DNA from: Acidobacteriota bacterium
GTDB taxonomy: Bacteria; Acidobacteriota; Thermoanaerobaculia; Multivoradales; J023
Reading direction: 5' to 3'
Assembly (NCBI GenBank): GCA_029263395.1
Contig: JAJCXO010000184.1
Coordinates: 39,838 to 103,837 of the forward strand
DNA length: 64,000 nt
Of the stretch, positions 8,871-49,842 are shown in pieces (position 1 is the first letter of the stretch; every line of letters begins with the position of its first letter). The translations under genes were made by a program, and so were the position numbers. The notes beneath the pieces are model-generated. The model was not told the origin of the DNA. It worked only from the letters and a program-made list of their open reading frames with translations, and searched no databases.

Positions 8871-9884
8871 ATGAGCCAGACCCCGAGCCTCAAACGCCAG
8901 CTGCTGCGCCAGGCGGTGGCTGATAATGTCTCCACGCTTCGAGGCGAGCTACCGCCAAAGCCCCAGGCTGCGGAGATACCTAGACGCCAAGTTCCGGGGC
9001 GGCTGCTGGCATTGGCAGCTCTTCCCGTTGTCGTGGGAGGCATACTCTTGTTGCTGCGGAGTTCACCAACTGCGCAGGCCAATCCTCCAGCCGGCCTCAA
9101 CTCGGACTCTCTGCCCGCGGCAGTAGCCACACGACCAGCGGAAGAACGACGCTTCACCGCTCCGCCACAGCCTATAGATTCAGACGTCTTCCCGCTGGAA
9201 GTGCGTCGTATTGTGGTCGATCCGGGGCATGGTGGCGACGATCACGGTACCGTCGACAACGATCTGGTTGAAAAAGACTTGACACTGGACATCGCCGGAC
9301 GTTTGGCCCAGCTCTTGCGCAAAGACGGCTTCGAGGTCAATCTCACCCGTGAAGACGACCGCAAGCTCTCATTGAAAGAGCGCGCCGACATCGCCAACGG
9401 CCAGCATAGTGATCTTTTTATCTCGATTCATGTCAACTGGATGAGCACCCGTCAAGTCAGAGGAGTCGAAACCTACTTCCTTGGAACCACCGAAGATCCT
9501 GAGCTCAAAGAGCTTACGCGGCGGGAGAATCGAGAGTCCGGCTACTCATTGGCCGATATGAAGTACTTGCTGGAGGGGATTTATACAGGTGTCCGGCGAG
9601 ATGCATCACGACAATTTGCCGACCGGGTGCAGCGTTCGCTTTTCGGCTCGCTCAAGCGAGTTAATCCAACTCTTGAAAACCGGGGCGTCAAAACAGCCCC
9701 ATTCGTGGTATTAGTATCCACTGAGATGCCAGCCATTCTTGCGGAAGTCTCCTGCCTCTCCAATCGGGACGAGGCCAGGCTCCTTTCGCGCCCACTTTAC
9801 CGAGACGGCATTGCTGAAGCGCTGGCCAGGGGCATTCGAGGATATGCTGATGACGTCCATCAAACAGAGGAAAAAGGGAGCTGA
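8871..9884 (+). CDS. N-acetylmuramoyl-L-alanine amidase (Amidase_3, AmiC-like)
   Basis: The catalytic domain carries IVVDPGHGGDDHGTV...EKDLTLDIAGRL...DLFISIHVN...GVETYFLG and ...PAILAEVSCLSN. The N-terminus has a signal/TM segment plus a Pro/Ala-rich linker. Confidence 0.85.
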   Translation: MSQTPSLKRQLLRQAVADNVSTLRGELPPKPQAAEIPRRQVPGRLLALAALPVVVGGILLLLRSSPTAQANPPAGLNSDSLPAAVATRPAEERRFTAPPQPIDSDVFPLEVRRIVVDPGHGGDDHGTVDNDLVEKDLTLDIAGRLAQLLRKDGFEVNLTREDDRKLSLKERADIANGQHSDLFISIHVNWMSTRQVRGVETYFLGTTEDPELKELTRRENRESGYSLADMKYLLEGIYTGVRRDASRQFADRVQRSLFGSLKRVNPTLENRGVKTAPFVVLVSTEMPAILAEVSCLSNRDEARLLSRPLYRDGIAEALARGIRGYADDVHQTEEKGS

Positions 9885-9887
9885 GGC

Positions 9888-10919
9888 ATGAGCGATAGCA
9901 GTGGGACCCTCAACGTAGGGATCGACCTCGGAACCTCACATTGTGCGGTTTCGGCATCGAACGGCCAGCGCCATGTGATCGAAAGCTATGTTGGCTGGCC
10001 GGTCGACATGGTGGCCCGCAAGGTGCTCAAGAAAGACGTGTTGGTCGGTACAGAGGCGGTCGAAAACCGAACTATGCTCGATCTTCACCGGCCTCTGGAG
10101 CGCGGACTGGTGAAAGAGGGTTCAGACAAAGATCTGGTAGCCGTGCAGGTGCTGTTGCGAACCCTGCTGGATCTCGCCGGGGTCGATCGCAAAGAAAAGA
10201 AGAGCAAAACGACTGTGCGCGCTGTTGTTGGTGTGCCGGCAGAAGCTATGCGAGTCAACAAGCAACAGCTGCGCGCCACACTCGACGGCGAAGTGGATGC
10301 CTTGATGATCGTGTCCGAACCCTTCGCTGTAGCCTATGGCCTCGACGCCCTACTCCACAGCCTGGTTGTCGACATCGGTGCCGGCACATCAGACTTCTGT
10401 GTCATGCGGGGCCGCTTTCCGACCGAAGACGACCAGCGCACTCTCACCAAGGCGGGGGACTCGGTTGATGAACTCCTGCTCAAACAGATCGGAGAAAAGC
10501 ATCCCGACGCTCAGGTTTCGATCTTCATGGCTCGAGAGTGGAAGGAAAAACACGGTTTCGTTGGCAAGCCCCAGCAGCGGGTCAAGGTCACCGCACCGGT
10601 CAAGGGGACGCCGACAACGCTCGACATCACCGACGAGATGCGCAACGCCTGTGAGTCGATCGTCGGACCGATCACCGAGACGATGCTCGACTTGCTACCC
10701 AGAGTATCGCCCGAGTTTCAGGAGAAGGTACGCAACAATATCATCCTCTCCGGTGGCAGCTCTCAGATCGCGGGCCTACGAGCAGCCCTAGAGGAAGGAC
10801 TGAAGCCAGTCGGCGGCGGCTCGATCCGGGGCGTCAAGAACCCGGTATTCGAAGGCTCCGATGGCGGCCTGGCTCTAGCTCTGGATGCGCCTGACGCTGA
10901 CTGGGACAAGCTGGGCTAA
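9888..10919 (+). CDS. mamK: MamK-family actin-like ATPase
   Basis: Collinear similarity to MamK along the whole length: GIDLGTSH, VVGVPA, VSEPF, DIGAGT, TLTKAG, FVG, SGGSS.I.GL, and a C-terminal W..LG. The actin-fold phosphate 1, connect 1, phosphate 2 and adenosine motifs are present. There is an RBS (AGGGAG) 7 nt upstream. No other mam genes are nearby. Confidence 0.75.
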   Translation: MSDSSGTLNVGIDLGTSHCAVSASNGQRHVIESYVGWPVDMVARKVLKKDVLVGTEAVENRTMLDLHRPLERGLVKEGSDKDLVAVQVLLRTLLDLAGVDRKEKKSKTTVRAVVGVPAEAMRVNKQQLRATLDGEVDALMIVSEPFAVAYGLDALLHSLVVDIGAGTSDFCVMRGRFPTEDDQRTLTKAGDSVDELLLKQIGEKHPDAQVSIFMAREWKEKHGFVGKPQQRVKVTAPVKGTPTTLDITDEMRNACESIVGPITETMLDLLPRVSPEFQEKVRNNIILSGGSSQIAGLRAALEEGLKPVGGGSIRGVKNPVFEGSDGGLALALDAPDADWDKLG

Positions 10920-12069
10920 CCTGTTGAGCCAACACTCGGAGGCAAAGCCGGAACCCGGCTCGGCCAAACACCTGACCCATCTGCGAGAGTCGATCGCCGA
11001 GGTCGACCGCTCGCTGCTTGAACTCCTCCACCGCCGTATGCAACTCGCAGCGGAGGTGGGTCGAGTGAAGGCACAGAAGGGCCAGCCGATTATGGTGCCC
11101 GAGGTTCATCATCGGGTGCTGACCAGAGCTCGGCAACACGCTGACGCCTGCGGGGTGTCGGAAGAGGTCATGGAATCGATCTTCCAGGCGGTCATGCGAG
11201 GCTCGGTCGAACGCCAGCATCGCGTCGGCGTAGCGGTCAGATCCGAGGGTGGCAGCCGCCTGTTGATCCTCGGCGGTGCGGGCGACATGGGACGATGGTT
11301 CCAGAGCTTCGCTCAGTTGCTCGGTCATCGGGTCGACCTTGTCGACCCGGCGATGGCGCCTCTCCCCCCCGCACCCGGCCGTTATGCGACCCTGGAAGAC
11401 GTCCCCAATCTCGACGACTACGAAGCGATCATCGTCTCGGTACCGCTCAACCGAATGCCGGTTGTCCTCGAGCAATTGATCAACCTCGGGCCACGTGGCC
11501 TCATCATCGAGATCTCATCGATCAAGGACGATCTGGCGCCGGTTCTAGACCAAGGGCGTCAAGCCGGCCTTCAGGTGTGCTCGCTGCACCCGATGTTCGG
11601 CCCCAAGAAATCGCCGTATGAATCCTTGACCTTCGTCCTCGCCTACACCGATGATCCGCAGCAGGAACGGTCACAGGTCGAAGAGTGGATCCGCCACCCG
11701 TACACCCATCTAGTGCCGGTTCCTTTTCATCACCATGATCGCCTGATGGGCTGGCTGCTGGGATTTGCTCATCTCTCCGGGATGCTGTTCGGCTGCGCCC
11801 TGACCCGTTCAGGTTTAGGCGCCGAGGAGCTCAAAGCGTGTGCGTCCACAACCTACAACCGCCAAACTTCGGCGGCACTCCACGTGCTCGGCGAAGATCC
11901 CGATCTCTACTTCGATATCCAGAATCTCAACCCTCACCGCGGCGAAGTCTATCGTGCTGCTAGCGAGGCGTTGAGTGAATTGGTGGAGGCAGTCGAAGAC
12001 GGAGACCGTGAGCGCTTCCGATCGGTGCTTTCCGACGCTCGACATTTTTTGATTTCAGAACCCGGCTAG
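10885..12069 (+). CDS. tyrA: bifunctional chorismate mutase / prephenate dehydrogenase (T-protein-like)
   Basis: The N-terminal AroQ chorismate mutase motif is LRESIAEVDRSLLELLHRRMQLAAEVGRVK. It is followed by a prephenate dehydrogenase domain (LLILGGAGDMGRWF, HPMFGP). The start is uncertain. The track ATG at 10885 overlaps mamK by 35 nt, and an in-frame TTG at 10924 would give a 5-nt gap instead. Confidence 0.75.
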   Translation: MRLTLTGTSWANLLSQHSEAKPEPGSAKHLTHLRESIAEVDRSLLELLHRRMQLAAEVGRVKAQKGQPIMVPEVHHRVLTRARQHADACGVSEEVMESIFQAVMRGSVERQHRVGVAVRSEGGSRLLILGGAGDMGRWFQSFAQLLGHRVDLVDPAMAPLPPAPGRYATLEDVPNLDDYEAIIVSVPLNRMPVVLEQLINLGPRGLIIEISSIKDDLAPVLDQGRQAGLQVCSLHPMFGPKKSPYESLTFVLAYTDDPQQERSQVEEWIRHPYTHLVPVPFHHHDRLMGWLLGFAHLSGMLFGCALTRSGLGAEELKACASTTYNRQTSAALHVLGEDPDLYFDIQNLNPHRGEVYRAASEALSELVEAVEDGDRERFRSVLSDARHFLISEPG

Positions 12070-12114: not shown

Positions 12115-13464
12115 GTGTACGATATGTCCGGCAAGTCTGCCGGAGCTGGCATGAGCAAGCGTAACGATATTCCCCCCCGTCTTCCTCGTCGACCGCCAAG
12201 CGTACCGGCGACGGAGCAGGTTGCGCTCGAACCGACTGTGCCTTGGGTCCCCTCCGAGCCGAGAGCTTCCGGTACGACCCGTTTGCTTCCCGGTCATGTG
12301 CTGGCTGACCGGTATCAAGTTCGCAACCTCCTGGGGTCAGGAGGTATGGCGGATGTCTACGAGGCCTGGGACACCGAGCTCGAAGAAGCGGTGGCAATCA
12401 AGGTATTACATCCATCGATCGGAACGCGCGACCGCATGGTCGAGCGCTTCAAAAAAGAGATTCGGCTGGCACGCAGAGTCGTCCATCCCAACGTTTGCCG
12501 GATCTACGATTTTGGGGCCTCGAAGGATCTCAAGTTCGTCACGATGGAGTTGTTGCCAGGTACAACTCTTGAAGCTCACATTGCGAGCCATCCAGAACTG
12601 GATCTCGACAGTCGGCTCACGATGTTTCGTGAGATTCTTTCGGGGCTCGAAGCAGCTCACCAGCTGGGCATTATCCATCGCGATCTAAAACCACAGAATG
12701 TGATGGTGACGCCCGATGGGCGTCCGGTGATCACAGACTTCGGAATCGCCCGCGAGCTCGACACCGGAGACAACACGACAGCAATCGGGGAAGTGTTGGG
12801 AACTCCAGCCTACATGGCGCCGGAGCGCATGCTTGGTGGCAGGGTTGACCTACGTTCCGACATTTACTCCCTCGGCGTGATTCTGTTCGAGTTGGCGACC
12901 GGAGAGCGCCCGTTCTCGGGCGTCACGATCTTCGACATGGCTCGGAACCAACTCAGCATCGATCCCCCACTACCGACATCACTCGCTCCCAACCTACCGC
13001 TTTGGCTCGAGCAGCTGATCCTCAAGATGCTCGCCAAACAACCCGAAGACCGTCTCCAGAGTGTTGCGGCAATCTTGACGGAGTTGCCTCAGACCGGTCG
13101 CATCAAGACAGTGCTCCTGGTAGACGACGATTCGACAATGCTGAGCATTGTCGGCGTTCACCTGAATCAAGCCGGCATTTCAGTGATCACTGCCGACAAC
13201 GGGGGCGCCGGCATCGAGATGATGCAGAACAAGGCGCCAGACCTGCTCTGTCTCGACTTCACCATGCCCCAGATGGACGGCTTTCAGGTGGCTACTTATC
13301 TTCACCGCCTCGGTAGCAAAGTACCGATCTTCATGTTGACCGGAATGCAGGATCCACAGTACGAAAAGCAAGCGGCTCGCCTCGGCATCGAGCAGTTCTT
13401 CACGAAACCACTAGACATCGAGGCGTTTGTCGACGCGGTGTCTCGTCGCTTGTCTTCTCTTTGA
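12115..13464 (+). CDS. Ser/Thr protein kinase with C-terminal response-regulator receiver (REC) domain
   Basis: The kinase carries subdomains I, II, VIb and VII-VIII (LGSGGMADVY, AIKVL, HRDLKPQNVMV, DFGIA, GTPAYMAPE). The C-terminal REC domain is VLLVDDDSTML...LDFTMPQMDG...TKP. An alternative start lies at 12124. Confidence 0.8.
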   Translation: MYDMSGKSAGAGMSKRNDIPPRLPRRPPSVPATEQVALEPTVPWVPSEPRASGTTRLLPGHVLADRYQVRNLLGSGGMADVYEAWDTELEEAVAIKVLHPSIGTRDRMVERFKKEIRLARRVVHPNVCRIYDFGASKDLKFVTMELLPGTTLEAHIASHPELDLDSRLTMFREILSGLEAAHQLGIIHRDLKPQNVMVTPDGRPVITDFGIARELDTGDNTTAIGEVLGTPAYMAPERMLGGRVDLRSDIYSLGVILFELATGERPFSGVTIFDMARNQLSIDPPLPTSLAPNLPLWLEQLILKMLAKQPEDRLQSVAAILTELPQTGRIKTVLLVDDDSTMLSIVGVHLNQAGISVITADNGGAGIEMMQNKAPDLLCLDFTMPQMDGFQVATYLHRLGSKVPIFMLTGMQDPQYEKQAARLGIEQFFTKPLDIEAFVDAVSRRLSSL

Positions 13465-40332: not shown

Positions 40333-41775
40333 CTAGCTCTGGCTAAACCGTCTGGTTCTAGCCAAGGTTGACCTAGCTGGCGAAGCAAAGCGAGTTGCTG
40401 GCTGTGCCTGCGGGCTCGGAGCCGATGGTGCGGTCGGCATAAGTTCAAGCCCGATCGCTTCACTAAACTTGGCCGCAAATTCCCGCGCCGTTGGTCTTCG
40501 CGCAGGATCTTTCTCGAGGGCCTGGAGTACCACCGTTTGAACTTCCTTCGTCAATTCAGGACGCAACGTCTGCATGCTTGGCGGCGCCTCATATTGATGC
40601 ATCAGGGCCAGTTTGATCAGATTGCCATCTGATACTGCAAACGGCAGCTCGCCAGTAACCATCTTGAACACCATCACACCGAGACTGTAGACATCAGTGC
40701 GTCCATCACAAGATTTCTTGGATGAGAATCGCTCCGGCGCCATGTAGGCTGGCGTCCCCGGCCCCGCCCCCCCCTGGGTCAGTCGACTGCTCGCTACCGA
40801 ATCCCCGATCAGTTTGGCGATTCCGAAATCGAGTACTTTGACCACTTCGCCCCGTGGCGATTCATGCAGAAAAATATTCTGCGGCTTGATGTCCCGATGC
40901 ACGATGCCCAAAGCGTGGGCTTCTGCCAGAACATCACATATGGGCAACAAAACTTCGGCGCACCTTGAAGGTGACAGTACCTTGTGCTCCTTGAGCATGG
41001 CTTCGAGCGTGGTGCCAGTCAGTAGTTCGGTAACCAAGTAAGGTACTCCGTCAGGCGTGACACTCGCATCTAACACCGAAACTGCATTCGGGTGCTCTAT
41101 CCGACACGTCGAACGGCCTTCTCGAAGAAAGCGCTCACGTAACTCGGCTTCATCGTCGCCACCGGCGCGAAGCAATTTGACCGCGACTTTTCGGTCGAGA
41201 TTGACGTGGGTCGCCTGATATACCTCCGCAAAATTGCCCCGGCCAATGTGTTCATCGAGCCGATAGCTACCATCCAACATCGCTCCTACTGCGATGCCAG
41301 TCCACGGATTGGAATCGGACGGCAACTCCGGCTGCAACCGGCGCGGAGTTCGGGTCCTCAGCCGCGAGTGTAGCCGAGCCAGAACCACCGGAAAATCCAA
41401 TGGTTTGGTGATGTAATCACTTGCCCCGAGCTCGAACGCACGGATGATCTGCTCGCTGCCGCTGCTGGCCGTCGCCATGACGATGACGAGATCCTCTTCA
41501 GAATGAGAAGCTCGGAGCTTTTCTAGGACCTGGAGACCGCTCATTCCGGGCATCATGACGTCGAGGATCACCAGGTCGACGTGGGCGTCAACCTTGCGAA
41601 GTGCCTCGGCCCCATCTCGGGCTTCGATCACCTCGAAGCCCTCGAGGGTCAGAAATCGCGCTAGTGGACGAAGGACGAACTCATTGTCGTCAACCAGCAA
41701 AATGGTGAAAGACTCGTCACTCATATCGGATGGAGCTTCGCACCCCAGGGTGTCGTTGCAGATGATCGCGTGCAC
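40333..41775 (-). CDS. response-regulator receiver (REC) domain fused to Ser/Thr protein kinase
   Basis: The N-terminal REC domain is ILLVDDNEFV...LVILDVMMPGMSG...ITKP. The kinase carries IGRGNFAEVY, VAVKLL, HRDIKPQNIFL, DFGIAK, GTPAYMAPE. An alternative start lies at MSDESF. Confidence 0.8.
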   Translation of the reverse strand: MHAIICNDTLGCEAPSDMSDESFTILLVDDNEFVLRPLARFLTLEGFEVIEARDGAEALRKVDAHVDLVILDVMMPGMSGLQVLEKLRASHSEEDLVIVMATASSGSEQIIRAFELGASDYITKPLDFPVVLARLHSRLRTRTPRRLQPELPSDSNPWTGIAVGAMLDGSYRLDEHIGRGNFAEVYQATHVNLDRKVAVKLLRAGGDDEAELRERFLREGRSTCRIEHPNAVSVLDASVTPDGVPYLVTELLTGTTLEAMLKEHKVLSPSRCAEVLLPICDVLAEAHALGIVHRDIKPQNIFLHESPRGEVVKVLDFGIAKLIGDSVASSRLTQGGAGPGTPAYMAPERFSSKKSCDGRTDVYSLGVMVFKMVTGELPFAVSDGNLIKLALMHQYEAPPSMQTLRPELTKEVQTVVLQALEKDPARRPTAREFAAKFSEAIGLELMPTAPSAPSPQAQPATRFASPARSTLARTRRFSQS

Positions 41776-44109: not shown

Positions 44110-46899
44110 TTAGTCGGACTCCAACATCTCATGCACTTTGTCGATCAGATCCTGCGGTCGGAACGGCTTGTGCAAGAATCCCTTCAGCCCCATATCCATG
44201 ATCTGACGCGACACCCGTTTCTTGCTGTACCCACTCATGATCGCGATCCGTGCTTTGGGATCGATCCGACGCAGGGCCCGAAAGACTGCTTCACCATCCA
44301 TCTCAGGCATCGTCATATCCAACACCACAGCATCAATCGTGTCTTGGTGTTGCCTGAAAATCTCAACCGCTTCGACGCCCCCCGAGACTGGCAAAACTTT
44401 CCAGCCTCGGCTCTCGAGGATCTCTTGCGTGACTTCCAGCACCAGCTCTTCGTCATCCACGACGAGAATTGTCGCATCGGCTCGTGGCTCGTCGACAATC
44501 CGTGGCCGGGCTGTCGTCTCGGGTTTGGCAGAAGCTGGAAACAGAACTTCGAAGGTTGTGCCTCTGCCGGGATCGCTGTAGACCTTGATAGCGCCGCCAT
44601 GTGCACCGATGATCCCCAAGGCGGTTGCCAGCCCTAGACCTCGACCCGCAGATTTTGTAGTGAAAAATGGATCGAACATCCGGGCTCGTGTCTCTTCATC
44701 GATGCCAATCCCGGAATCCGAGACCTCGAAGAATACATAGTTACCGGGCGGATGGTCACCAGTGGGTTGCGCCGACTGGAAATAACTTGCGGCTGCCTTG
44801 ACCTGGCTGGTACGAATTGTGATGACGCCAGGCGCCGGTCCTACCGCATCCGCAGCATTTGTTACCAAACGCAGCACAACCCGGCGCAATTGATCCGAAT
44901 CGACGTCGATCGGCGGTAGTGTCTTCTTGAGCTGAAATTGCAACACCACCTTCTCGGGAATCCGTTCTTCTAGCTGAGGCGCCAACGCCTGGAGCAGATC
45001 ATTGAGCTGCAGTGTTTCGCGCTCTGGCTCTTCCTCCCCCGCAAAGGCTAGGAGCTCGTCGGACAGATCCGCTGCCCGCTCGGCCGTTCGTTCGATCAGG
45101 CGGATCTTGTCGTAGGCCGAGGACCCTGGATCAATCTCCCTCAGCGCAAGATCGGCGTGCACCATCACACCGGTCAGCAGGTTGTTGTAATCATGGGCGA
45201 TACCGGCAGCCAGGTCCGCCAAGCTCTCCAGCTTGGCGGCTTGCTGAAGCCGAGTCTCGAGTTTCAGCTGTTCTTCCTCACTCTGGCGCCGCTGAGAAAT
45301 GTCGCGTGCGATGGCGACAATACCCACCGGTTGCCCTTCCAGATCACGCAAGAGATTGACGGTCATCCAGGTTTGGAAGGTCGAACCATCTTGGTGACGG
45401 TGGCCAACTTCACCATCAAAACTGTCCTGCTCCCGAACCTGCGTCAGCAACGGATAAACCTCTAGCTGCATCTGTTCCCGGGTGTGGAACAGATTCAGGT
45501 CGTAGCCGAGCACCTCCGGCACCTCATAACCATGCATGCGGGCCCACGCCTCATTGAGGAACTGTGTCGAACCCGCCAGGTCGGCGACTATGATGCCGTC
45601 GATCGACTGCTCAACGGCACGCTCCAACATCCGCATCGACTCCTCGGCCAGTTGCCGTTCGGCATTCTCCGCCCGGAGCTGATCGTTGGCAGCCAAAAGT
45701 TCGGTGGTCGCTTCGTCCACTTTCTGCTCGAGTTGAAATCGCATCGAGTCGAGCTCTAGATGCAGACGGCTGTATCTATTGGAAAGCGAAACCGCCATCG
45801 ACAAGCCGAAGATTCCGAATGCCCAGGCCGGTAGTGGATACGTGGTACCGCGTCCCAGAACCTGGAAGGTGAGCTCGGCAACACCAGCTCCCACCACCAT
45901 CAAACCTCCGAGCCCAATCGTCCGGGCGTCTTGATCACCCTGCCACGATCTGACTGCCAACAACTGGCCGAGCCCACCAAGCAGAGGTAGAACCCAGATC
46001 CAACGGATCGTATTGGATCTGACAACCCATTCGATCGGCAGTACGACCACCGCAGCTGCGATCAGCAGATGCGAGAGTTGATAACGCCGGATCCAGGTGT
46101 TGATCGGTTGCTCGAGGTACTTCCACAATAATTGGATCAGGAAAACCACTGCCAGGTGGATCGTCGCTGAGCTGAGCCGACGACCGACCGCAAACGAATC
46201 GGTCAGGCTGTAACTCAAGCGAACCGCAAAAACTACCGCGGCGAAATCGAGCGCTGTCAAACCGAACCACAGGTACTCCACGCTCTCACGGCGTCGACTG
46301 AACAGCTGGAGATGGTAGAGACCGGCGGCCACCAAGAGGACGGCGATCAGAATCGAATGGAGAGCGCTCTGTCGTGATTTCTGCAGGTCCCGTTCGGCAA
46401 TCGCAGCCATCGTCTCCAGATCACCCAACAGCAAACGCTTCCCTGCCGGTCCAGAGTTACCCACCAGATCACTCGCCCACCCCACTCGATGAAACGTCAG
46501 TTCGAGAGTCAGCTCCCCCGCTGCGCTGACGGCACTCAACGGCACGACAAACACCTGAGCCGATGGCGCTGGTAACAACCCGCTGCCATAACCGCCAAGC
46601 GGCTGGTCTCCAGCCATCAAGCTATAGGCCCCGTACTTGGCCTCGTCGATCAACAGCGCCAAGCCACTAGGAGCCAGCTTGGTTCTCCACTCTGACGGCA
46701 GCACTAACTCACGACGCAAACGAACAGGCCCCTCATACCCCATCAGCTCGAGCTCCCGCCAGCTTGCTGGAAAGGTGATCGTGGAGACAGAAACCTCGAG
46801 TGCACCGCCCACACCGTCACCAGCGTGACCTTCCACCGTCAGTTGCCAAGGTCCCGTCAGATCCATGACGCCTGGCATCGGACCATCAGCGGCCAGCAA
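44110..46899 (-). CDS. hybrid sensor histidine kinase (7TMR-DISM-type: extracytoplasmic sensor + 7TM + PAS + HisKA/HATPase + REC)
   Basis: The N-terminal periplasmic domain is homologous to its neighbour paralog (LTGPWQ..., SGLALLIDEAKYGAYSL). Seven TM segments follow. A PAS domain, HisKA (AAGIAHDYNNLLTGV), HATPase (DSGIGIDE...GRGLGLA) and REC (ILVVDDEELV...LDMTMPEMDG) complete the architecture. The annotated TTG start lacks a signal peptide. The upstream in-frame sequence encodes one, but without a canonical start codon. Confidence 0.85.
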   Translation of the reverse strand: MLAADGPMPGVMDLTGPWQLTVEGHAGDGVGGALEVSVSTITFPASWRELELMGYEGPVRLRRELVLPSEWRTKLAPSGLALLIDEAKYGAYSLMAGDQPLGGYGSGLLPAPSAQVFVVPLSAVSAAGELTLELTFHRVGWASDLVGNSGPAGKRLLLGDLETMAAIAERDLQKSRQSALHSILIAVLLVAAGLYHLQLFSRRRESVEYLWFGLTALDFAAVVFAVRLSYSLTDSFAVGRRLSSATIHLAVVFLIQLLWKYLEQPINTWIRRYQLSHLLIAAAVVVLPIEWVVRSNTIRWIWVLPLLGGLGQLLAVRSWQGDQDARTIGLGGLMVVGAGVAELTFQVLGRGTTYPLPAWAFGIFGLSMAVSLSNRYSRLHLELDSMRFQLEQKVDEATTELLAANDQLRAENAERQLAEESMRMLERAVEQSIDGIIVADLAGSTQFLNEAWARMHGYEVPEVLGYDLNLFHTREQMQLEVYPLLTQVREQDSFDGEVGHRHQDGSTFQTWMTVNLLRDLEGQPVGIVAIARDISQRRQSEEEQLKLETRLQQAAKLESLADLAAGIAHDYNNLLTGVMVHADLALREIDPGSSAYDKIRLIERTAERAADLSDELLAFAGEEEPERETLQLNDLLQALAPQLEERIPEKVVLQFQLKKTLPPIDVDSDQLRRVVLRLVTNAADAVGPAPGVITIRTSQVKAAASYFQSAQPTGDHPPGNYVFFEVSDSGIGIDEETRARMFDPFFTTKSAGRGLGLATALGIIGAHGGAIKVYSDPGRGTTFEVLFPASAKPETTARPRIVDEPRADATILVVDDEELVLEVTQEILESRGWKVLPVSGGVEAVEIFRQHQDTIDAVVLDMTMPEMDGEAVFRALRRIDPKARIAIMSGYSKKRVSRQIMDMGLKGFLHKPFRPQDLIDKVHEMLESD

Positions 46900-46971
46900 T
46901 TCTGTCGCCAGAAGGAAGCACGCCGCGAGGCCAAAACTACGAGCAATGGAACGGATAGTGACCTCCTAAAC

Positions 46972-49842
46972 CTAGCCTCTCGGCTCGGGCTCGAGAATAC
47001 CTTGCACTTTGGCCAACAACTCCTCAGGACGAAACGGCTTCGGTAGAAATCCTGAGATCCCGGGAGCGGTCTCGCGCTGCGTCGTACTGTCCAATTCGTA
47101 GCCGCTCATCAGCAGAACCTGAGCTTGCTGGTTGAGTGCCAGGATACCTTCGAGTACGTCCAGACCCGACAAATCGGGCATCGTGCGATCGAGCAAAACC
47201 AATCGGATGTTGGTCCAGTGCTCACGATAGAGTTCTAAAGCCTGCTGGCCGCCTTCCGCGGTCAGCACCTCGAAACCACAGCCTTCGAGAATGCTGCGGG
47301 AGACCTCACGCATCAACTGCTCGTCGTCCACCACCAACACGACGCCGCTGCTGCGCCAGGTCTGATTGGACGGCCCAGCTTTGGCAACCTCCTCGACCGA
47401 CTCTCGAATTCTCGGGAAAAGCAATTCGAAACTCGCTCCCTGCCCCAGAGCACTCTCGAGTTTGATCGTACCGCCGTGTGCTCGGACCGTGCTCAAGACC
47501 GAGGCTAGGCCAAGGCCTCGCCCCGCCAGCTTGGTCGTAAAAAACGGATCAAAAACCCGAGCACGAATTTTTCGTTCGATCCCAATACCGGTGTCCGACA
47601 CCGACACAAAGACACAATCGTCCGCCGGCAACTCCTCGGTCGGATAGGCCCCGGAGAGATAGCTCGCGTCCACTGAGATCTCGCCGGTTCGAACCTCGAC
47701 CACTCCGCCGCCGGCAGCCAACGACTCCATCGCGTTGTTCACCAGGTTGGTGATGGCCTGGCTAACCAATTGTTCATCGATCAAGATCTCAGGGAGATCA
47801 TTGCCTAGATGGATATCAACTTGGACTCCATCCGGTGCACACTCCAACCATCCTCTGGACGACGCTGCGACCAACTTGTTGAGATCGACAGAGTGCCTTC
47901 GCGACGGACCAGCGCCGGCGTAACTCAGCAGTTGGGCCGTCAAGTCAGCAGCCCGATCGGCCGCTGTTCCGATATGAACCAATTTCTCTGCCGCAGGAGA
48001 AGCCGCTGGCAGGGCACTGAAGGCCAAACTGGCATTGCCCAAGACTCCGGTCAGCAAATTGTTGTAGTCATGGGCGATACCACCGGCAAGCTTGGCTAGG
48101 CTACTGAGTTTCTCGGCTTCTTGAATGCGAGCTTCGATGCGCTGTTTCTCGGCCGCAGCACGCTGACGTTCCGTGATGTCCCGAGCGACAGCCACAAAAC
48201 CGACCGGCTCCCCCGCTGGATCGCGCAGAAGGGTGATACTCATCCACGTGGGAAATACTGAACCGTCTTTACGACGGTGATCGATCTGACCGTCCCAAGA
48301 ACCTTCTTCCCTGACGTGAATCAATGCTGGGCGAAGCTCACCCGTCATCTGTTCCGGTGAGTGGAAAATCTCCAGTCGCCGCCCGAAGATCTCAAAACCT
48401 TCGCGACCATGCATGTCGGCCCAGGCATCGTTGGTGAACACAATGTCTTCATCGAGACCGGTGACTAAGATGCCGTCGATCGACTGTTCTACAGCGCGCT
48501 CAAGCATCCGCATCGCTTCTTGCGCCAGTTCACGCTCTGCAATCTGTGACTGCAGCCGTTCGTTGGCTGTAGATAGCTCCCCGGTACGGTCGACCACCAT
48601 TTCCTCGAGCTGCAAGCGTAAAGCATCGAGATCGCCATGCACTCGACTAAAACGGTTCGACAAAGAGAAGGCCATCGACAAAGCGAACACAGTAAAAGCG
48701 ACCGATTGGAGAGGGAAAGTTGACCCGTATCCCAGTAGCTGCGAGGACATTTCGATACTCCCCGCGGTCGCAATCGCCAAACCACCAACAGCGATCGTCC
48801 GTGCCTCGGCATTACCTCGCCATGCCTTTCGGATCACCAGACTCACCACAGCTGGCAAGAAAGGCAAGCTCCAGAGTTTGCTCAGAGCTTCGATCCGAAC
48901 TGCCCAGACAGATTCCGGTGCGATTGAAATGATCAAGGCCCAGCCCAGGAAGGACAGCTGATAGGCCCGGAGCCAGGGACCGATGCGCTGCAACAGAAAT
49001 GGCCACAAGAACTGGATCGAAGCGACCAACATCAAGTTGCCCGTGACGTCGTAAAGCCGCCGAATCGCGACGTAGTGATCCGTAATTCCACTGATCCAGT
49101 GGGTGAAGAGTAGCGTATTGATCGCGACCAGCAGAGCGGTCAAGCCAAACCAAAGGTACTCACCGCACCGCCGATCACGACGAAACAGTTGCAAGTGATA
49201 GAGACCGATCGCAGTGTAGAGCAGCACCAGGATGGCCAACGGCAAGTCGGCGTTGAGCTGCTCCGCTCGCCGGAGCTCAGCCTGCATCTCGAGACGATTT
49301 TTGTCTCCGACCAGCCAGCCATCGCCGATGGGGCTCGCGTGTCGCGAGCGTTCGGGCACCCACTCTTGCCAAGTCCAGTGCAAATCCAGTCGTAACCGTC
49401 CGTCTCGATCGATCGCCTTCTCGGGCACTGCAAAAACCTGGGGAGGAGGGGGAGCAATGTCCGGTGGCGGCCCTGACCAGGAGCCGATCAGCTCGCCATC
49501 AGCCAGCACCTGGAAGTCACCATACTGAGCCCTGGTGATGAGCAACGCCAGCCCCGAGGGAGCTAGCTCGGTCTCCCATGCTTTACCGAGGACAATTTCC
49601 CGACGCAGCCAGAGTGAGTCATCGTCGTCCGAGATCTGGATCGAGGAGGCCTGAGTCGGAAGCGACACACCTCGCCATACGACCGTATCTCCTGCCGCTG
49701 CCACGCCACCGATTCGGTAGTGCCAAGTGCCCGCGAGATCGACGACCCCAGGACGGTTGACCTGAGCCGCGACACAAGGCGCGAACAGCAGGGCGATCAA
49801 CGCCCACAGTAGTTTTCGGTAATCCATCCGCTTCAGACACAA
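46972..49842 (-). CDS. hybrid sensor histidine kinase (7TMR-DISM-type), tandem paralog
   Basis: Same architecture as the neighbouring kinase. Signal peptide (MDYRKLLWALIALLFAPCVAAQ). HisKA GGIAHDYNNLLTGV, HATPase SDTGIGIE...GRGLGLA, REC VLVVDDEQLM...LDRTMPDLSG. Confidence 0.85.
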   Translation of the reverse strand: MCLKRMDYRKLLWALIALLFAPCVAAQVNRPGVVDLAGTWHYRIGGVAAAGDTVVWRGVSLPTQASSIQISDDDDSLWLRREIVLGKAWETELAPSGLALLITRAQYGDFQVLADGELIGSWSGPPPDIAPPPPQVFAVPEKAIDRDGRLRLDLHWTWQEWVPERSRHASPIGDGWLVGDKNRLEMQAELRRAEQLNADLPLAILVLLYTAIGLYHLQLFRRDRRCGEYLWFGLTALLVAINTLLFTHWISGITDHYVAIRRLYDVTGNLMLVASIQFLWPFLLQRIGPWLRAYQLSFLGWALIISIAPESVWAVRIEALSKLWSLPFLPAVVSLVIRKAWRGNAEARTIAVGGLAIATAGSIEMSSQLLGYGSTFPLQSVAFTVFALSMAFSLSNRFSRVHGDLDALRLQLEEMVVDRTGELSTANERLQSQIAERELAQEAMRMLERAVEQSIDGILVTGLDEDIVFTNDAWADMHGREGFEIFGRRLEIFHSPEQMTGELRPALIHVREEGSWDGQIDHRRKDGSVFPTWMSITLLRDPAGEPVGFVAVARDITERQRAAAEKQRIEARIQEAEKLSSLAKLAGGIAHDYNNLLTGVLGNASLAFSALPAASPAAEKLVHIGTAADRAADLTAQLLSYAGAGPSRRHSVDLNKLVAASSRGWLECAPDGVQVDIHLGNDLPEILIDEQLVSQAITNLVNNAMESLAAGGGVVEVRTGEISVDASYLSGAYPTEELPADDCVFVSVSDTGIGIERKIRARVFDPFFTTKLAGRGLGLASVLSTVRAHGGTIKLESALGQGASFELLFPRIRESVEEVAKAGPSNQTWRSSGVVLVVDDEQLMREVSRSILEGCGFEVLTAEGGQQALELYREHWTNIRLVLLDRTMPDLSGLDVLEGILALNQQAQVLLMSGYELDSTTQRETAPGISGFLPKPFRPEELLAKVQGILEPEPRG

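What the first reader, a model, noticed from the sequence alone, without database searches (positions are those of the whole stretch)
8871..10919. MamK-family actin-like protein directly coupled to a cell-wall amidase, with no magnetosome genes
The 343-aa protein aligns along its full length with MamK (all actin-fold ATPase motifs plus MamK-specific blocks such as TLTKAG and the C-terminal W..LG). Nothing resembling mamA/B/E/I/J/L/M/O/P/Q is within about 10 kb. It starts 3 nt after an Amidase_3 gene, with an AGGGAG RBS in the amidase 3' end. It is followed, possibly overlapped, by a chorismate mutase/prephenate dehydrogenase and then a Ser/Thr kinase-REC fusion. A MamK-like filament operonic with a peptidoglycan amidase is not a described pairing. 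It could be a cytoskeletal positioning module for septal or polar wall hydrolysis.
Basis: partly seen in the sequence, partly recalled or inferred. Interest (0 to 1): 0.6.

Follow-up and report, generated by a model that had tools for sequence, protein, structure and literature searches.

The report
Actin-like filament gene paired with wall amidase
A close relative of the magnetosome actin MamK sits next to a membrane-anchored cell-wall amidase gene in every related genome examined, none from a lineage known to be magnetotactic, which points to an undescribed cytoskeleton-guided wall-cutting module.

Summary
Window 8871-9884 encodes an Amidase_3 peptidoglycan amidase. Three nucleotides later, 9888-10919 encodes a 343-aa actin-fold protein whose closest characterised relative is MamK (40% identity; model TM 0.90-0.95 to the MamK filament subunit). 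No magnetosome-type gene was found among 40 scanned genes of the 64-kb window. The host is an Acidobacteriota MAG.

The new result is the conservation of the pair. The amidase lies directly upstream on the same strand in 79 of 79 genome loci and 63 of 64 metagenome loci. The one exception keeps a truncated amidase. The median gap is 3 nt. No third gene is shared. Other MamK-family branches lack the amidase.

The amidase is predicted to cross the membrane once. Its cytoplasmic N-terminal helix carries a conserved motif (LKRQLLRQAVx[ED]N), followed by a variable disordered linker and an AmiA/B/C-type catalytic domain with intact zinc and catalytic residues.

Best explanation (inferred, not shown): the filament binds this tail and positions or clusters the amidase, analogous to bactofilin BacA and the hydrolase LmdC. 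No paper in the searched library describes the pairing. I rate it a new variant of a known kind, interest about 0.7.

The parts
8871..9884 (+). Peptidoglycan amidase gene (337 aa). Predicted single-pass membrane protein with the N-terminus in the cytoplasm and the Amidase_3 domain in the periplasm.
   Evidence: Pfam Amidase_3, E 3.6e-48. AF2 model with mean pLDDT 80.7. Foldseek matches to AmiA 8c2o, AmiB 3ne8, CwlD 7rag and AmiC2 5emi. Present directly upstream of the actin gene in 142 of 143 testable loci.
8886..8945 (+). Conserved cytoplasmic N-terminal helix motif of the amidase (residues 6-25: SLKRQLLRQAVADNVSTLRG). Candidate docking peptide for the actin-like filament.
   Evidence: AF2 predicts a helix at residues 5-23. 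N19 is invariant; L12, V16 and G25 are at least 90% conserved. The motif occurs in 72 of 72 locus amidases and 114 of 115 database homologues, against 6 of 3553 control ORFs. Mean p-distance is 0.56 for the tail and 0.84 for the following linker and TM segment. The motif is also present in the divergent L081 amidase.
9000..9056 (+). Predicted transmembrane helix or signal anchor (residues 44-62), followed by a variable, disordered periplasmic linker (residues 63-~103, nt 9057-9179).
   Evidence: AF2 predicts a helix at 44-62 and pLDDT below 50 for 68-89. The alignment shows a hydrophobic stretch in all homologues with poorly conserved sequence. There are 7 K+R residues in 1-42 on the N-terminal side. 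A twin-arginine motif is not conserved.
9207..9872 (+). Amidase_3 catalytic domain (residues 113-334). Zinc and catalytic residues are H120, E134, H187 and E292. It carries an AmiA/B/C-type insert at about residues 206-265 (nt 9486-9665).
   Evidence: H120, E134, H187 and E292 are invariant. phmmer aligns the domain continuously with E. coli AmiA, Bartonella AmiB and E. coli AmiC across the insert, but in two pieces with the insert-less AmiC2. Foldseek TMq is highest (0.56) for AmiA and AmiB.
9875..9880 (+). Shine-Dalgarno-like AGGGAG inside the 3' end of the amidase gene, 7 nt before the actin ATG. This arrangement fits translational coupling.
   Evidence: Read directly from the sequence. The median gap between amidase stop and actin start is 3 nt, and 76 of 80 gaps are 30 nt or less.
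9888..10919 (+). MamK-family actin-like ATPase gene (343 aa), belonging to the amidase-coupled clade.
   Evidence: NCBIfam MamK NF040964 gives 371 bits against a cut-off of 400. PDB MamK gives 259 bits. The AF2 model has pLDDT 86.9. Foldseek to the MamK filament subunit 5ljv_A gives TM 0.90/0.95, rmsd 1.8 A and 40% identity; BeeR gives 0.84 and 29%. E144 and D162 align with MamK E143 and D161. The clade has 100% bootstrap support in the NJ tree.

Best explanation
This is a conserved two-gene module. A MamK-family actin-like ATPase is co-expressed with a single-pass membrane peptidoglycan amidase.

Proposed mechanism:
1. The actin-like protein polymerises in the cytoplasm.
2. The amidase's conserved N-terminal cytoplasmic helix (LKRQLLRQAVx[ED]N...G) binds the polymer.
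3. The transmembrane helix and a long flexible periplasmic linker then let the catalytic domain cut stem peptides from glycan strands only where the filament lies.

The filament would supply the positional information that AMIN domains supply for AmiB and AmiC. In turn the amidase would give the filament, which has no membrane-binding motif of its own, a membrane and cell-wall anchor.

Shown here: the gene pair and its conservation, the domain architecture, intact catalytic residues in both proteins, and a MamK-like fold.

Inferred: polymerisation, tail-filament binding, membrane topology, and where in the cell the module acts (septum, pole or side wall).
For: **Adjacency**
- The amidase is directly upstream on the same strand in 79 of 79 genome loci (63-94% actin identity). 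Their record labels include Acidobacteriota, Binatia, Methylomirabilota, 'Deltaproteobacteria', Entotheonellaceae, Eisenbacteria and Chloroflexota.
- It is also directly upstream in 63 of 64 metagenome loci. The exception carries a truncated amidase.
- The more divergent P0125 (49%) and P0133 (42%) lineages show the same arrangement.
- The median gap is 3 nt, with an RBS inside the amidase gene.
- De novo clustering of neighbouring ORFs finds no third shared gene.

**Specificity**
- Six other MamK-family representatives (P0130, P0131, P0139, P0144, and the Planctomycetota proteins P0430 and P0445) have no amidase next to them. A seventh, P0129, shows none downstream, but only about 160-240 nt upstream of it is held.

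**The tail**
- It is a predicted helix at residues 5-23, with invariant N19 and at least 90% conservation at L12, V16 and G25.
- It is nearly as conserved as the catalytic domain (p-distance 0.56 against 0.45), while the adjoining linker and TM segment are not (0.84).
- The least conserved helix positions (10, 14, 17, 21) fall on one face.

**The enzyme**
- H120, E134, H187 and E292 are invariant.
- There is no AMIN domain and no conserved Tat motif.

**The actin**
- It shares the MamK fold in the filament-like conformation, and equivalents of E143 and D161 are present.
- A non-magnetotactic MamK relative, saltatorellin, forms filaments in E. coli (bioRxiv 10.1101/817700).

**Precedent**
- Bactofilin BacA binds the N-terminal cytoplasmic tail of the bitopic M23 hydrolase LmdC, which is encoded next to it (PMC10945521).
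Against: - No direct test of binding, polymerisation or localisation was possible here, and no complex prediction could be run.
- In the window protein and its closest relatives the hydrophobic segment ends in A-Q-A. That could be a signal-peptidase site, and cleavage would separate the tail from the enzyme.
- The amidase has the AmiA/B/C-type insert, which in those enzymes auto-inhibits and needs a LytM activator. No such activator is encoded nearby, so control could work through activation rather than position.
- The residue equivalent to MamK A278 (A278D blocks MamK polymerisation) is Glu here. However, this position varies across the whole family.
- Deep branches of the actin tree are unresolved, so a single origin of the amidase-linked lineages is not established.
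Confidence: 0.55

Rival explanations
1. The dependence runs the other way. The amidase mainly acts as a trans-envelope anchor that fixes the filament to the membrane and wall. The filament's real job would be to organise some cytoplasmic cargo, much as MamK organises magnetosomes.
For: MamK itself is a cargo-organising filament (PMC11929497 introduction). The actin has no membrane-binding motif of its own. Other MamK-family branches pair with soluble, heptad-rich (probably coiled-coil) proteins or with che genes, which suggests adaptor-and-cargo logic.
Against: No third conserved gene that could encode a cargo or adaptor was found. All zinc and catalytic residues of the amidase are invariant, so enzyme activity is under selection, not just wall binding.
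Confidence: 0.15
2. The filament controls amidase activity rather than position. ATP-dependent assembly on the tail would switch the auto-inhibited enzyme on across the membrane, comparable to FtsEX-EnvC activating AmiA and AmiB.
For: The catalytic domain carries the AmiA/B/C-type regulatory insert. No LytM-type activator gene is adjacent. The partner is an ATPase.
Against: A single transmembrane helix followed by about 40 poorly conserved residues predicted to be disordered is a poor conduit for a conformational signal. LytM activators could be encoded elsewhere in the genome.
Confidence: 0.12
3. The two genes share only an operon and a process, for example daughter-cell separation or another wall-remodelling event, and make no physical contact.
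For: Operon neighbours need not interact. No binding data exist.
Against: Adjacency in fixed order with a 3-nt gap holds down to 42% actin identity and across loci labelled with several different phyla. The conserved cytoplasmic motif on a periplasmic enzyme has no other obvious role. The two proteins' pairwise distances correlate (r = 0.77), although shared ancestry alone could produce this.
Confidence: 0.13
4. It is a genuine magnetosome MamK whose magnetosome gene cluster lies elsewhere in the genome.
For: It is the closest sequence and structure match to MamK among characterised proteins.
Against: It scores below the NCBIfam MamK cut-off and forms a clade with 100% support, separate from canonical MamK. 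No mam-type genes occur in the 64 kb. The pair recurs in at least 143 loci from groups for which I found no report of magnetotaxis, always with an amidase. The single paper in the library that mentions both MamK and Acidobacteriota names the phylum only as a component of the sampled soil community.
Confidence: 0.02
5. It is a ParM/Alp-type DNA-segregation actin of a plasmid or prophage.
For: Many orphan bacterial actins are of this kind (general knowledge).
Against: There are no tblastn hits at E <= 1e-10 in 72,556 plasmid or 50,697 phage records. No repeat array or ParR-like gene is present. The locus sits among housekeeping genes (TRAP transporter, tyrA, PspA) whose order is kept in relatives. 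Composition is uniform across the window.
Confidence: 0.01

Closest known systems
MamK (magnetosome actin; PDB 5ljv, 5ljw, 5jyg)
   Same: Same fold, with TM 0.90-0.95 to the filament subunit. 40% identity along the full length. ATPase residues equivalent to E143 and D161 are present. The TLTKAG block and the C-terminal W..LG are shared.
   Different: It lies in a separate clade with 100% support, and it scores below the NCBIfam cut-off (371 against 400). It is not in a magnetosome gene cluster. It is always preceded by an amidase gene. The hosts are Acidobacteriota, Binatia and other groups for which I found no report of magnetotaxis.
Bactofilin BacA with the M23 endopeptidase LmdC (Hyphomonas, Rhodospirillum; PMC10945521)
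   Same: A cytoskeletal polymer gene sits next to a gene for a bitopic wall hydrolase, and the adjacency is conserved over many taxa. [quoted passage not shown]
   Different: Here the polymer is an actin-fold ATPase, not a bactofilin. The enzyme is an Amidase_3, not an M23 peptidase. The tail is a predicted helix, not a beta-hairpin. Binding is shown for BacA-LmdC and only inferred here.
E. coli AmiA/AmiB/AmiC and Bartonella AmiB (cell-separation amidases)
   Same: Same Amidase_3 fold with the regulatory insert and the same zinc and catalytic residues. Identity to AmiA is about 31%.
   Different: There is no AMIN targeting domain and no conserved Tat signal. Instead there is a conserved cytoplasmic helix, a membrane anchor and a flexible linker. 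All NCBIfam AmiA/B/C/CwlD equivalog cut-offs are missed.
Non-magnetosome MamK relatives: BeeR (Verrucomicrobiota; PMC11929497) and saltatorellin (Saltatorellota; bioRxiv 10.1101/817700)
   Same: These are MamK-related actins in non-magnetotactic bacteria. BeeR polymerises with ATP and saltatorellin forms filaments in E. coli.
   Different: BeeR is more distant (29% identity, 193 bits on its model) and forms a three-stranded tube. Saltatorellin's primer-encoded C-terminus (YWEQLK) matches the Planctomycetota branch, where the three contexts I checked have no amidase. The saltatorellin preprint never uses the word amidase, and the passages of the BeeR paper I read do not mention one.
MreB/MreBH-guided wall hydrolases and RodZ (general knowledge, not tested here)
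   Same: The concept is the same: an actin homologue under the membrane organises periplasmic or extracellular wall enzymes through a membrane-spanning link.
   Different: MreB is only about 23% identical (Foldseek; 68 bits on the NCBIfam MreB model). The link here would be the hydrolase's own tail rather than RodZ or the elongasome, and the genes are fused into one two-gene unit.

Membership tests
MamK family actin-like protein (NCBIfam NF040964) | Whole-protein score at or above the curated cut-off of 400 bits | tested here: not met
   371.1 bits, E 4.4e-111, covering 8-343 of the protein and 1-331 of 335 in the model. This is a near miss. NCBI names the clade 'rod shape-determining protein'.
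MamK family actin-like protein (NCBIfam NF040964) | Actin fold closest to MamK, with the ATPase residues (MamK E143 and D161) | tested here: met
   Foldseek to 5ljv_A gives TM 0.90/0.95 and rmsd 1.8 A. E144 and D162 align with E143 and D161.
MamK family actin-like protein (NCBIfam NF040964) | Encoded in a magnetosome gene cluster and organises magnetosome chains | tested here: not met
   No mam-type Pfam families among 40 genes of the 64-kb window. The constant neighbour is an amidase. The rest of the genome could not be searched.
MamK family actin-like protein (NCBIfam NF040964) | ATP-dependent polymerisation into double-stranded filaments | not testable with these tools
   Only inferred from 40% identity and the filament-like predicted conformation.
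Amidase_3 N-acetylmuramoyl-L-alanine amidase (PF01520) | Pfam gathering score, plus zinc ligands (His, Glu, His) and the catalytic Glu | tested here: met
   164.3 bits against a cut-off of 27. H120, E134, H187 and E292 are invariant in 56 homologues.
AmiA/AmiB/AmiC-type cell-division amidases | Regulatory (auto-inhibitory) insert within the catalytic domain | tested here: met
   The alignment with AmiA 8c2o, AmiB 3ne8 and AmiC 4bin is continuous through residues ~206-265, and is split in two with the insert-less AmiC2 5emi. Whether the helix actually occludes the active site was not examined.
AmiA/AmiB/AmiC-type cell-division amidases | Tat or Sec export as a soluble periplasmic enzyme; AMIN targeting domain in AmiB and AmiC; NCBIfam equivalog score | tested here: not met
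   No AMIN domain. The twin arginine is not conserved. A 19-residue hydrophobic helix is predicted. Scores of 78-104 bits fall far short of the cut-offs of 400-700.
Cytoskeleton-hydrolase morphogenetic module (BacA-LmdC type) | Conserved adjacency of a polymer gene and a bitopic hydrolase gene | tested here: met
   142 of 143 loci.
Cytoskeleton-hydrolase morphogenetic module (BacA-LmdC type) | Conserved N-terminal cytoplasmic region of the hydrolase binds the polymer directly | not testable with these tools
   Conservation of the tail is shown. Binding is not tested.
Cytoskeleton-hydrolase morphogenetic module (BacA-LmdC type) | The polymer is a bactofilin and the hydrolase an M23 peptidase | tested here: not met
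   Here the pair is an actin fold and an Amidase_3. This is an analogue, not a member.
ParM/Alp plasmid-segregation actins | Located on a mobile replicon with an adjacent adaptor gene and centromere repeats | tested here: not met
   No plasmid or phage hits, no repeat arrays, and conserved chromosomal gene order.

The most novel reading that the evidence does not exclude
A widespread, previously unrecognised actin cytoskeleton exists whose dedicated client is a peptidoglycan amidase. It occurs in Acidobacteriota, Binatia, Methylomirabilota and other groups. The filament would hold the enzyme through a 20-residue cytoplasmic helix and so write a spatial pattern of wall cleavage from inside the cell. 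By extension, 'MamK' would be one specialised branch of a large family of client-specific positioning actins with different partners: an amidase here, che proteins, probable coiled-coil adaptors, or a ParA-like protein in other branches.
Probability: 0.45. Interest if true: 0.8.

Novelty: new variant of a known kind. Interest (0 to 1): 0.7.

Why it matters
How bacteria aim wall-cutting enzymes from the cytoplasm is known for only a few systems: FtsEX-EnvC, MreB with RodZ, and bactofilin with LmdC. This pair would add an actin-family example reduced to two genes and one short peptide, which makes it unusually easy to test in vitro.

It also changes how MamK should be seen. Its closest relatives are common in soil and sediment bacteria outside the known magnetotactic groups and are tied to cell-wall hydrolysis. 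That bears on where the magnetosome cytoskeleton came from.

There is a practical point for annotation. These proteins are currently named 'rod shape-determining protein', a label that hides the family.

Tried and rejected
- **Exact lookup of the window protein:** no gene with this exact product was on record.
- **First tree attempt:** a BLOSUM-distance tree in Biopython timed out. I replaced it with a Kimura-corrected NJ tree with 100 bootstraps. The window clade, the canonical MamK core and the long-extension clade are well supported, but the backbone is not (<50%). I therefore do not claim a sister relationship to MamK, or a single origin for the P0125, P0133 and window lineages.
- **Third conserved gene:** rejected. 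All other ORF clusters shared by many loci were shadow ORFs inside the two genes or lineage-specific neighbours.
- **tyrA and the kinase-REC gene as module parts:** rejected. tyrA follows only in the 23 closest loci and the kinase in 3.
- **First tail-motif pattern:** it was too strict (54 of 72). The misses clearly carried variant forms, and a relaxed pattern gave 72 of 72 against 6 of 3553 controls.
- **Tat export:** rejected, because the RR pair is not conserved.
- **MamK A278 equivalent (Glu here) as a sign of non-polymerisation:** rejected, because the position varies across the family.
- **Promoter and terminator scan:** uninformative. Promoter-like matches were no more frequent than in shuffled sequence, and none of the terminator-like matches lies between the amidase, actin and tyrA genes.
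- **Rfam:** found only a tRNA.
- **Saltatorellin:** I tried to locate it among the retrieved proteins. Only its primer-encoded termini are known and no exact match was found. C-termini ending ...WEQLK occur in the Planctomycetota branch.
- **Coevolution analysis:** I considered a tail-versus-actin analysis but did not run it, because about 140 related pairs are too few to separate contact signal from shared ancestry.
Full report
**1. What is in the window**

ORF 8871-9884 (+) encodes a 337-aa protein with a Pfam Amidase_3 domain (E 3.6e-48). Three nucleotides after its stop codon, ORF 9888-10919 (+) encodes a 343-aa actin-fold protein. An AGGGAG lies 7 nt before its ATG, inside the end of the amidase gene.

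Against NCBIfam, the actin-fold protein scores 371 bits on the MamK family model (cut-off 400). It scores 193 bits on BeeR and 68 bits on MreB. Against PDB sequences it aligns over its full length with M. magneticum MamK at 259 bits. The alignment includes the TLTKAG block, the C-terminal W..LG, and the equivalents of the ATPase residues E143 and D161, which are E144 and D162 here.

Downstream are a chorismate mutase/prephenate dehydrogenase gene and a Ser/Thr kinase-receiver fusion. Upstream are a DUF4126 gene and a TRAP transporter. One correction: the overlap with the downstream gene is probably not real, because homologues align only from residue 14, where a TTG sits at 10924.

**2. Host and wider context**

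The nearest database proteins and loci come from Acidobacteriota MAGs, mostly Thermoanaerobaculia. Pfam scans of 40 genes across the 64 kb found ordinary housekeeping, transport and signalling genes. They found nothing resembling magnetosome genes. There is no MreB in the window. The protein has no relatives at E <= 1e-10 in plasmid or phage collections, and there are no centromere-like repeats.

**3. The pair is a conserved unit**

- *Genomes.* A scan of one genome per species found 185 loci encoding relatives, of which 80 were kept (63-94% identity). By record label, 50 are Acidobacteriota, 9 Binatia, 10 'Deltaproteobacteria' or similar, 2 Methylomirabilota, 1 each Entotheonellaceae, Chloroflexota and Eisenbacteria, and 6 unclassified. 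In 79 of them an amidase homologue lies directly upstream on the same strand. The 80th contig begins at the actin gene.
- *Spacing.* The median gap is 3 nt, and 76 of 80 gaps are 30 nt or less.
- *No third gene.* Clustering all neighbouring ORFs de novo gave no third gene shared across the set. The tyrA gene follows only in the 23 closest loci.
- *Metagenomes.* An independent metagenome scan gave 80 more loci. Of the 64 with at least 700 nt upstream, 63 have the amidase in place. The exception has the first part of the amidase catalytic domain fused just before the actin gene, so it is a truncated copy or a misassembly.
- *Divergent lineages.* Two more distant lineages, P0125 (49% identity) and P0133 (42%), also have an Amidase_3 gene directly upstream.
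- *Reverse direction.* The top amidase homologues come from contigs of the same lengths as the top actin homologues.

**4. The coupling is specific to one part of the MamK family**

A search of 1.84 billion cluster representatives gave 1010 relatives, 174 of them below E 1e-30. In an NJ tree the window clade has 100% bootstrap support. It is separate from canonical MamK (AMB-1 with P0210 and P0154). The backbone is unresolved.

Other branches have different neighbours:
- P0130 sits inside a chemotaxis operon.
- P0131 and P0139 lie next to soluble, heptad-rich proteins without predicted membrane segments, probably coiled coils.
- P0129 has a similar protein about 0.9 kb downstream, but too little upstream DNA is held to judge.
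- A large Planctomycetota branch, which NCBI already names 'MamK family actin-like protein', has a ParA-like or a GGDEF neighbour and no amidase.

Saltatorellin, the published MamK-like filament former of Saltatorellota, has a primer-encoded C-terminus YWEQLK. That matches the Planctomycetota branch.

**5. Anatomy of the amidase**

The AF2 model (mean pLDDT 80.7) has four parts: a helix at residues 5-23, a hydrophobic helix at 44-62, a low-confidence segment up to about residue 103, and a compact catalytic domain at 113-334.

The N-terminal helix carries a motif, L-K-R-Q-L-L-R-Q-A-V-x-[E/D]-N-[L/V/I]-x4-G. N19 is invariant, and L12, V16 and G25 are at least 90% conserved.
- A relaxed pattern finds the motif in 72 of 72 locus amidases and 114 of 115 database homologues, against 6 of 3553 control ORFs.
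- It is recognisable even in the divergent L081 amidase (QRQAVLRAVGEDN).
- The tail is almost as conserved as the catalytic domain (mean p-distance 0.56 against 0.45). The following linker and membrane segment are not (0.84).
- The least conserved helix positions (10, 14, 17, 21) fall on one face, which suggests that most of the helix surface is buried in a partner.
- Seven Lys and Arg residues precede the hydrophobic helix, which fits a cytoplasmic N-terminus.

The catalytic domain keeps H120, E134, H187 and E292 invariant. Its nearest solved structures are the E. coli AmiA and Bartonella AmiB catalytic domains, CwlD and AmiC2. It aligns without a break through the insert that AmiA, AmiB and AmiC carry and AmiC2 lacks. 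There is no AMIN domain and no conserved twin-arginine signal.

**6. Anatomy of the actin**

The AF2 model (pLDDT 86.9) superposes best on the MamK filament subunit 5ljv_A (TM 0.90/0.95, rmsd 1.8 A, 40% identity). BeeR comes next (0.84, 29% identity), followed by actins and MreB. There is no N-terminal amphipathic helix or other obvious membrane-binding element.

The residue equivalent to MamK A278 is Glu here; the A278D mutation blocks MamK polymerisation. However, that position is E, A, D, P or S across the family, so it predicts nothing.

**7. Most likely mechanism**

The simplest reading of these facts is a cytoskeleton-hydrolase module. The facts are fixed gene order, translational coupling, and a periplasmic enzyme carrying a strongly conserved cytoplasmic helix. 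There is also a flexible tether, and no targeting domain.

In this reading the filament binds the tail and so decides where the amidase acts. The amidase in turn ties the filament to the membrane and wall. The experimentally established parallel is bactofilin BacA binding the N-terminal cytoplasmic tail of the neighbouring bitopic M23 peptidase LmdC (PMC10945521).

Polymerisation, binding, topology and the site of action are all inferred. I put 0.55 on this mechanism and about 0.9 on the weaker claim that the two genes form one functional unit.

The rivals are:
- the amidase as an anchor for a cargo-moving filament;
- control of amidase activity across the membrane rather than control of position;
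- co-regulation without physical contact.

A true magnetosome role and a plasmid-segregation role are essentially excluded by context and distribution, although whole genomes could not be searched.

**8. Novelty**

Full-text searches combining MamK or MamK-like with amidase, or bacterial actin with amidase and gene neighbourhood, found nothing relevant. The one paper mentioning both MamK and Acidobacteriota names the phylum only as part of the sampled soil community. The known non-magnetosome MamK relatives, BeeR and saltatorellin, lie on other branches. Their papers do not report an amidase partner in the passages read, and the saltatorellin preprint does not contain the word.

The general principle, a cytoplasmic polymer recruiting a wall hydrolase through its tail, is known. 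This actin-amidase version appears to be undescribed. I therefore file it as a new variant of a known kind.

Noticed in passing
P0134-P0161 (for example P0144 at L172:4864-8562; P0146): A clade with 100% support has a MamK-like domain at the C-terminus of 500-1232-aa proteins. The two N-terminal extensions I read (P0144, P0146) are charged and low in complexity; P0144's is very acidic and rich in E, P, I and V. The ten scanned extensions have no Pfam match. In L172 the gene is followed by a second actin, three Roadblock/LC7 genes and an Arf/Ras-like GTPase.
   Followed up: partly
P0196 (from the representatives; no locus fetched): A single 768-aa protein fuses a complete FtsZ (Tubulin plus FtsZ_C) to a MamK-like domain that is 48% identical to AMB-1 MamK.
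   Followed up: no
L084:1-4507: A MamK-family actin (P0130, 44% identical to the window protein) sits inside a chemotaxis operon, in the order CheA/CheW, CheC, CheD, actin, unknown 291-aa protein, CheC. This suggests yet another client for this actin family.
   Followed up: no
L085:32-895, L088:7161-7697, L086:2144-2650: Other MamK-family branches have soluble, heptad-rich proteins of 170-290 aa next to or near the actin gene. They look like coiled coils, with no predicted membrane segment and no Pfam match. They are possible adaptors, but I did not compare them with each other.
   Followed up: partly
window:12115-13464 (+) and window:40333-41775 (-): The window holds two Ser/Thr kinase and receiver-domain fusions with opposite domain order: kinase-REC at 12115 and REC-kinase at 40333. 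There are also two large 7TMR-DISM/PAS hybrid histidine kinases in tandem at 44110-49842.
   Followed up: no
window:8567-8709: An imperfect inverted repeat (25-nt arms, 76% complementary, 93 nt apart) lies in the 338-nt intergenic region between the DUF4126 gene and the amidase gene. Nothing in Rfam reached its gathering score there.
   Followed up: partly
window:13476-15018 (-): A PspA/IM30 gene, a YbjN/CesT-like gene and a small DnaJ-domain gene sit together just downstream on the opposite strand. The trio is kept in several related loci (L001, L009, L015, L016).
   Followed up: no
window:24061-27198 (+): A 1045-aa ORF combines an MFS-like membrane region (below the Pfam cut-off) with a spermine/spermidine synthase domain.
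   Followed up: no
L162:900-1100: This is the only metagenome locus without an intact amidase. It keeps just the start of the catalytic domain (IDLAVIPLGVKKIALDPGHGG...) immediately before the actin gene. It is either a natural truncation or an assembly artefact.
   Followed up: partly
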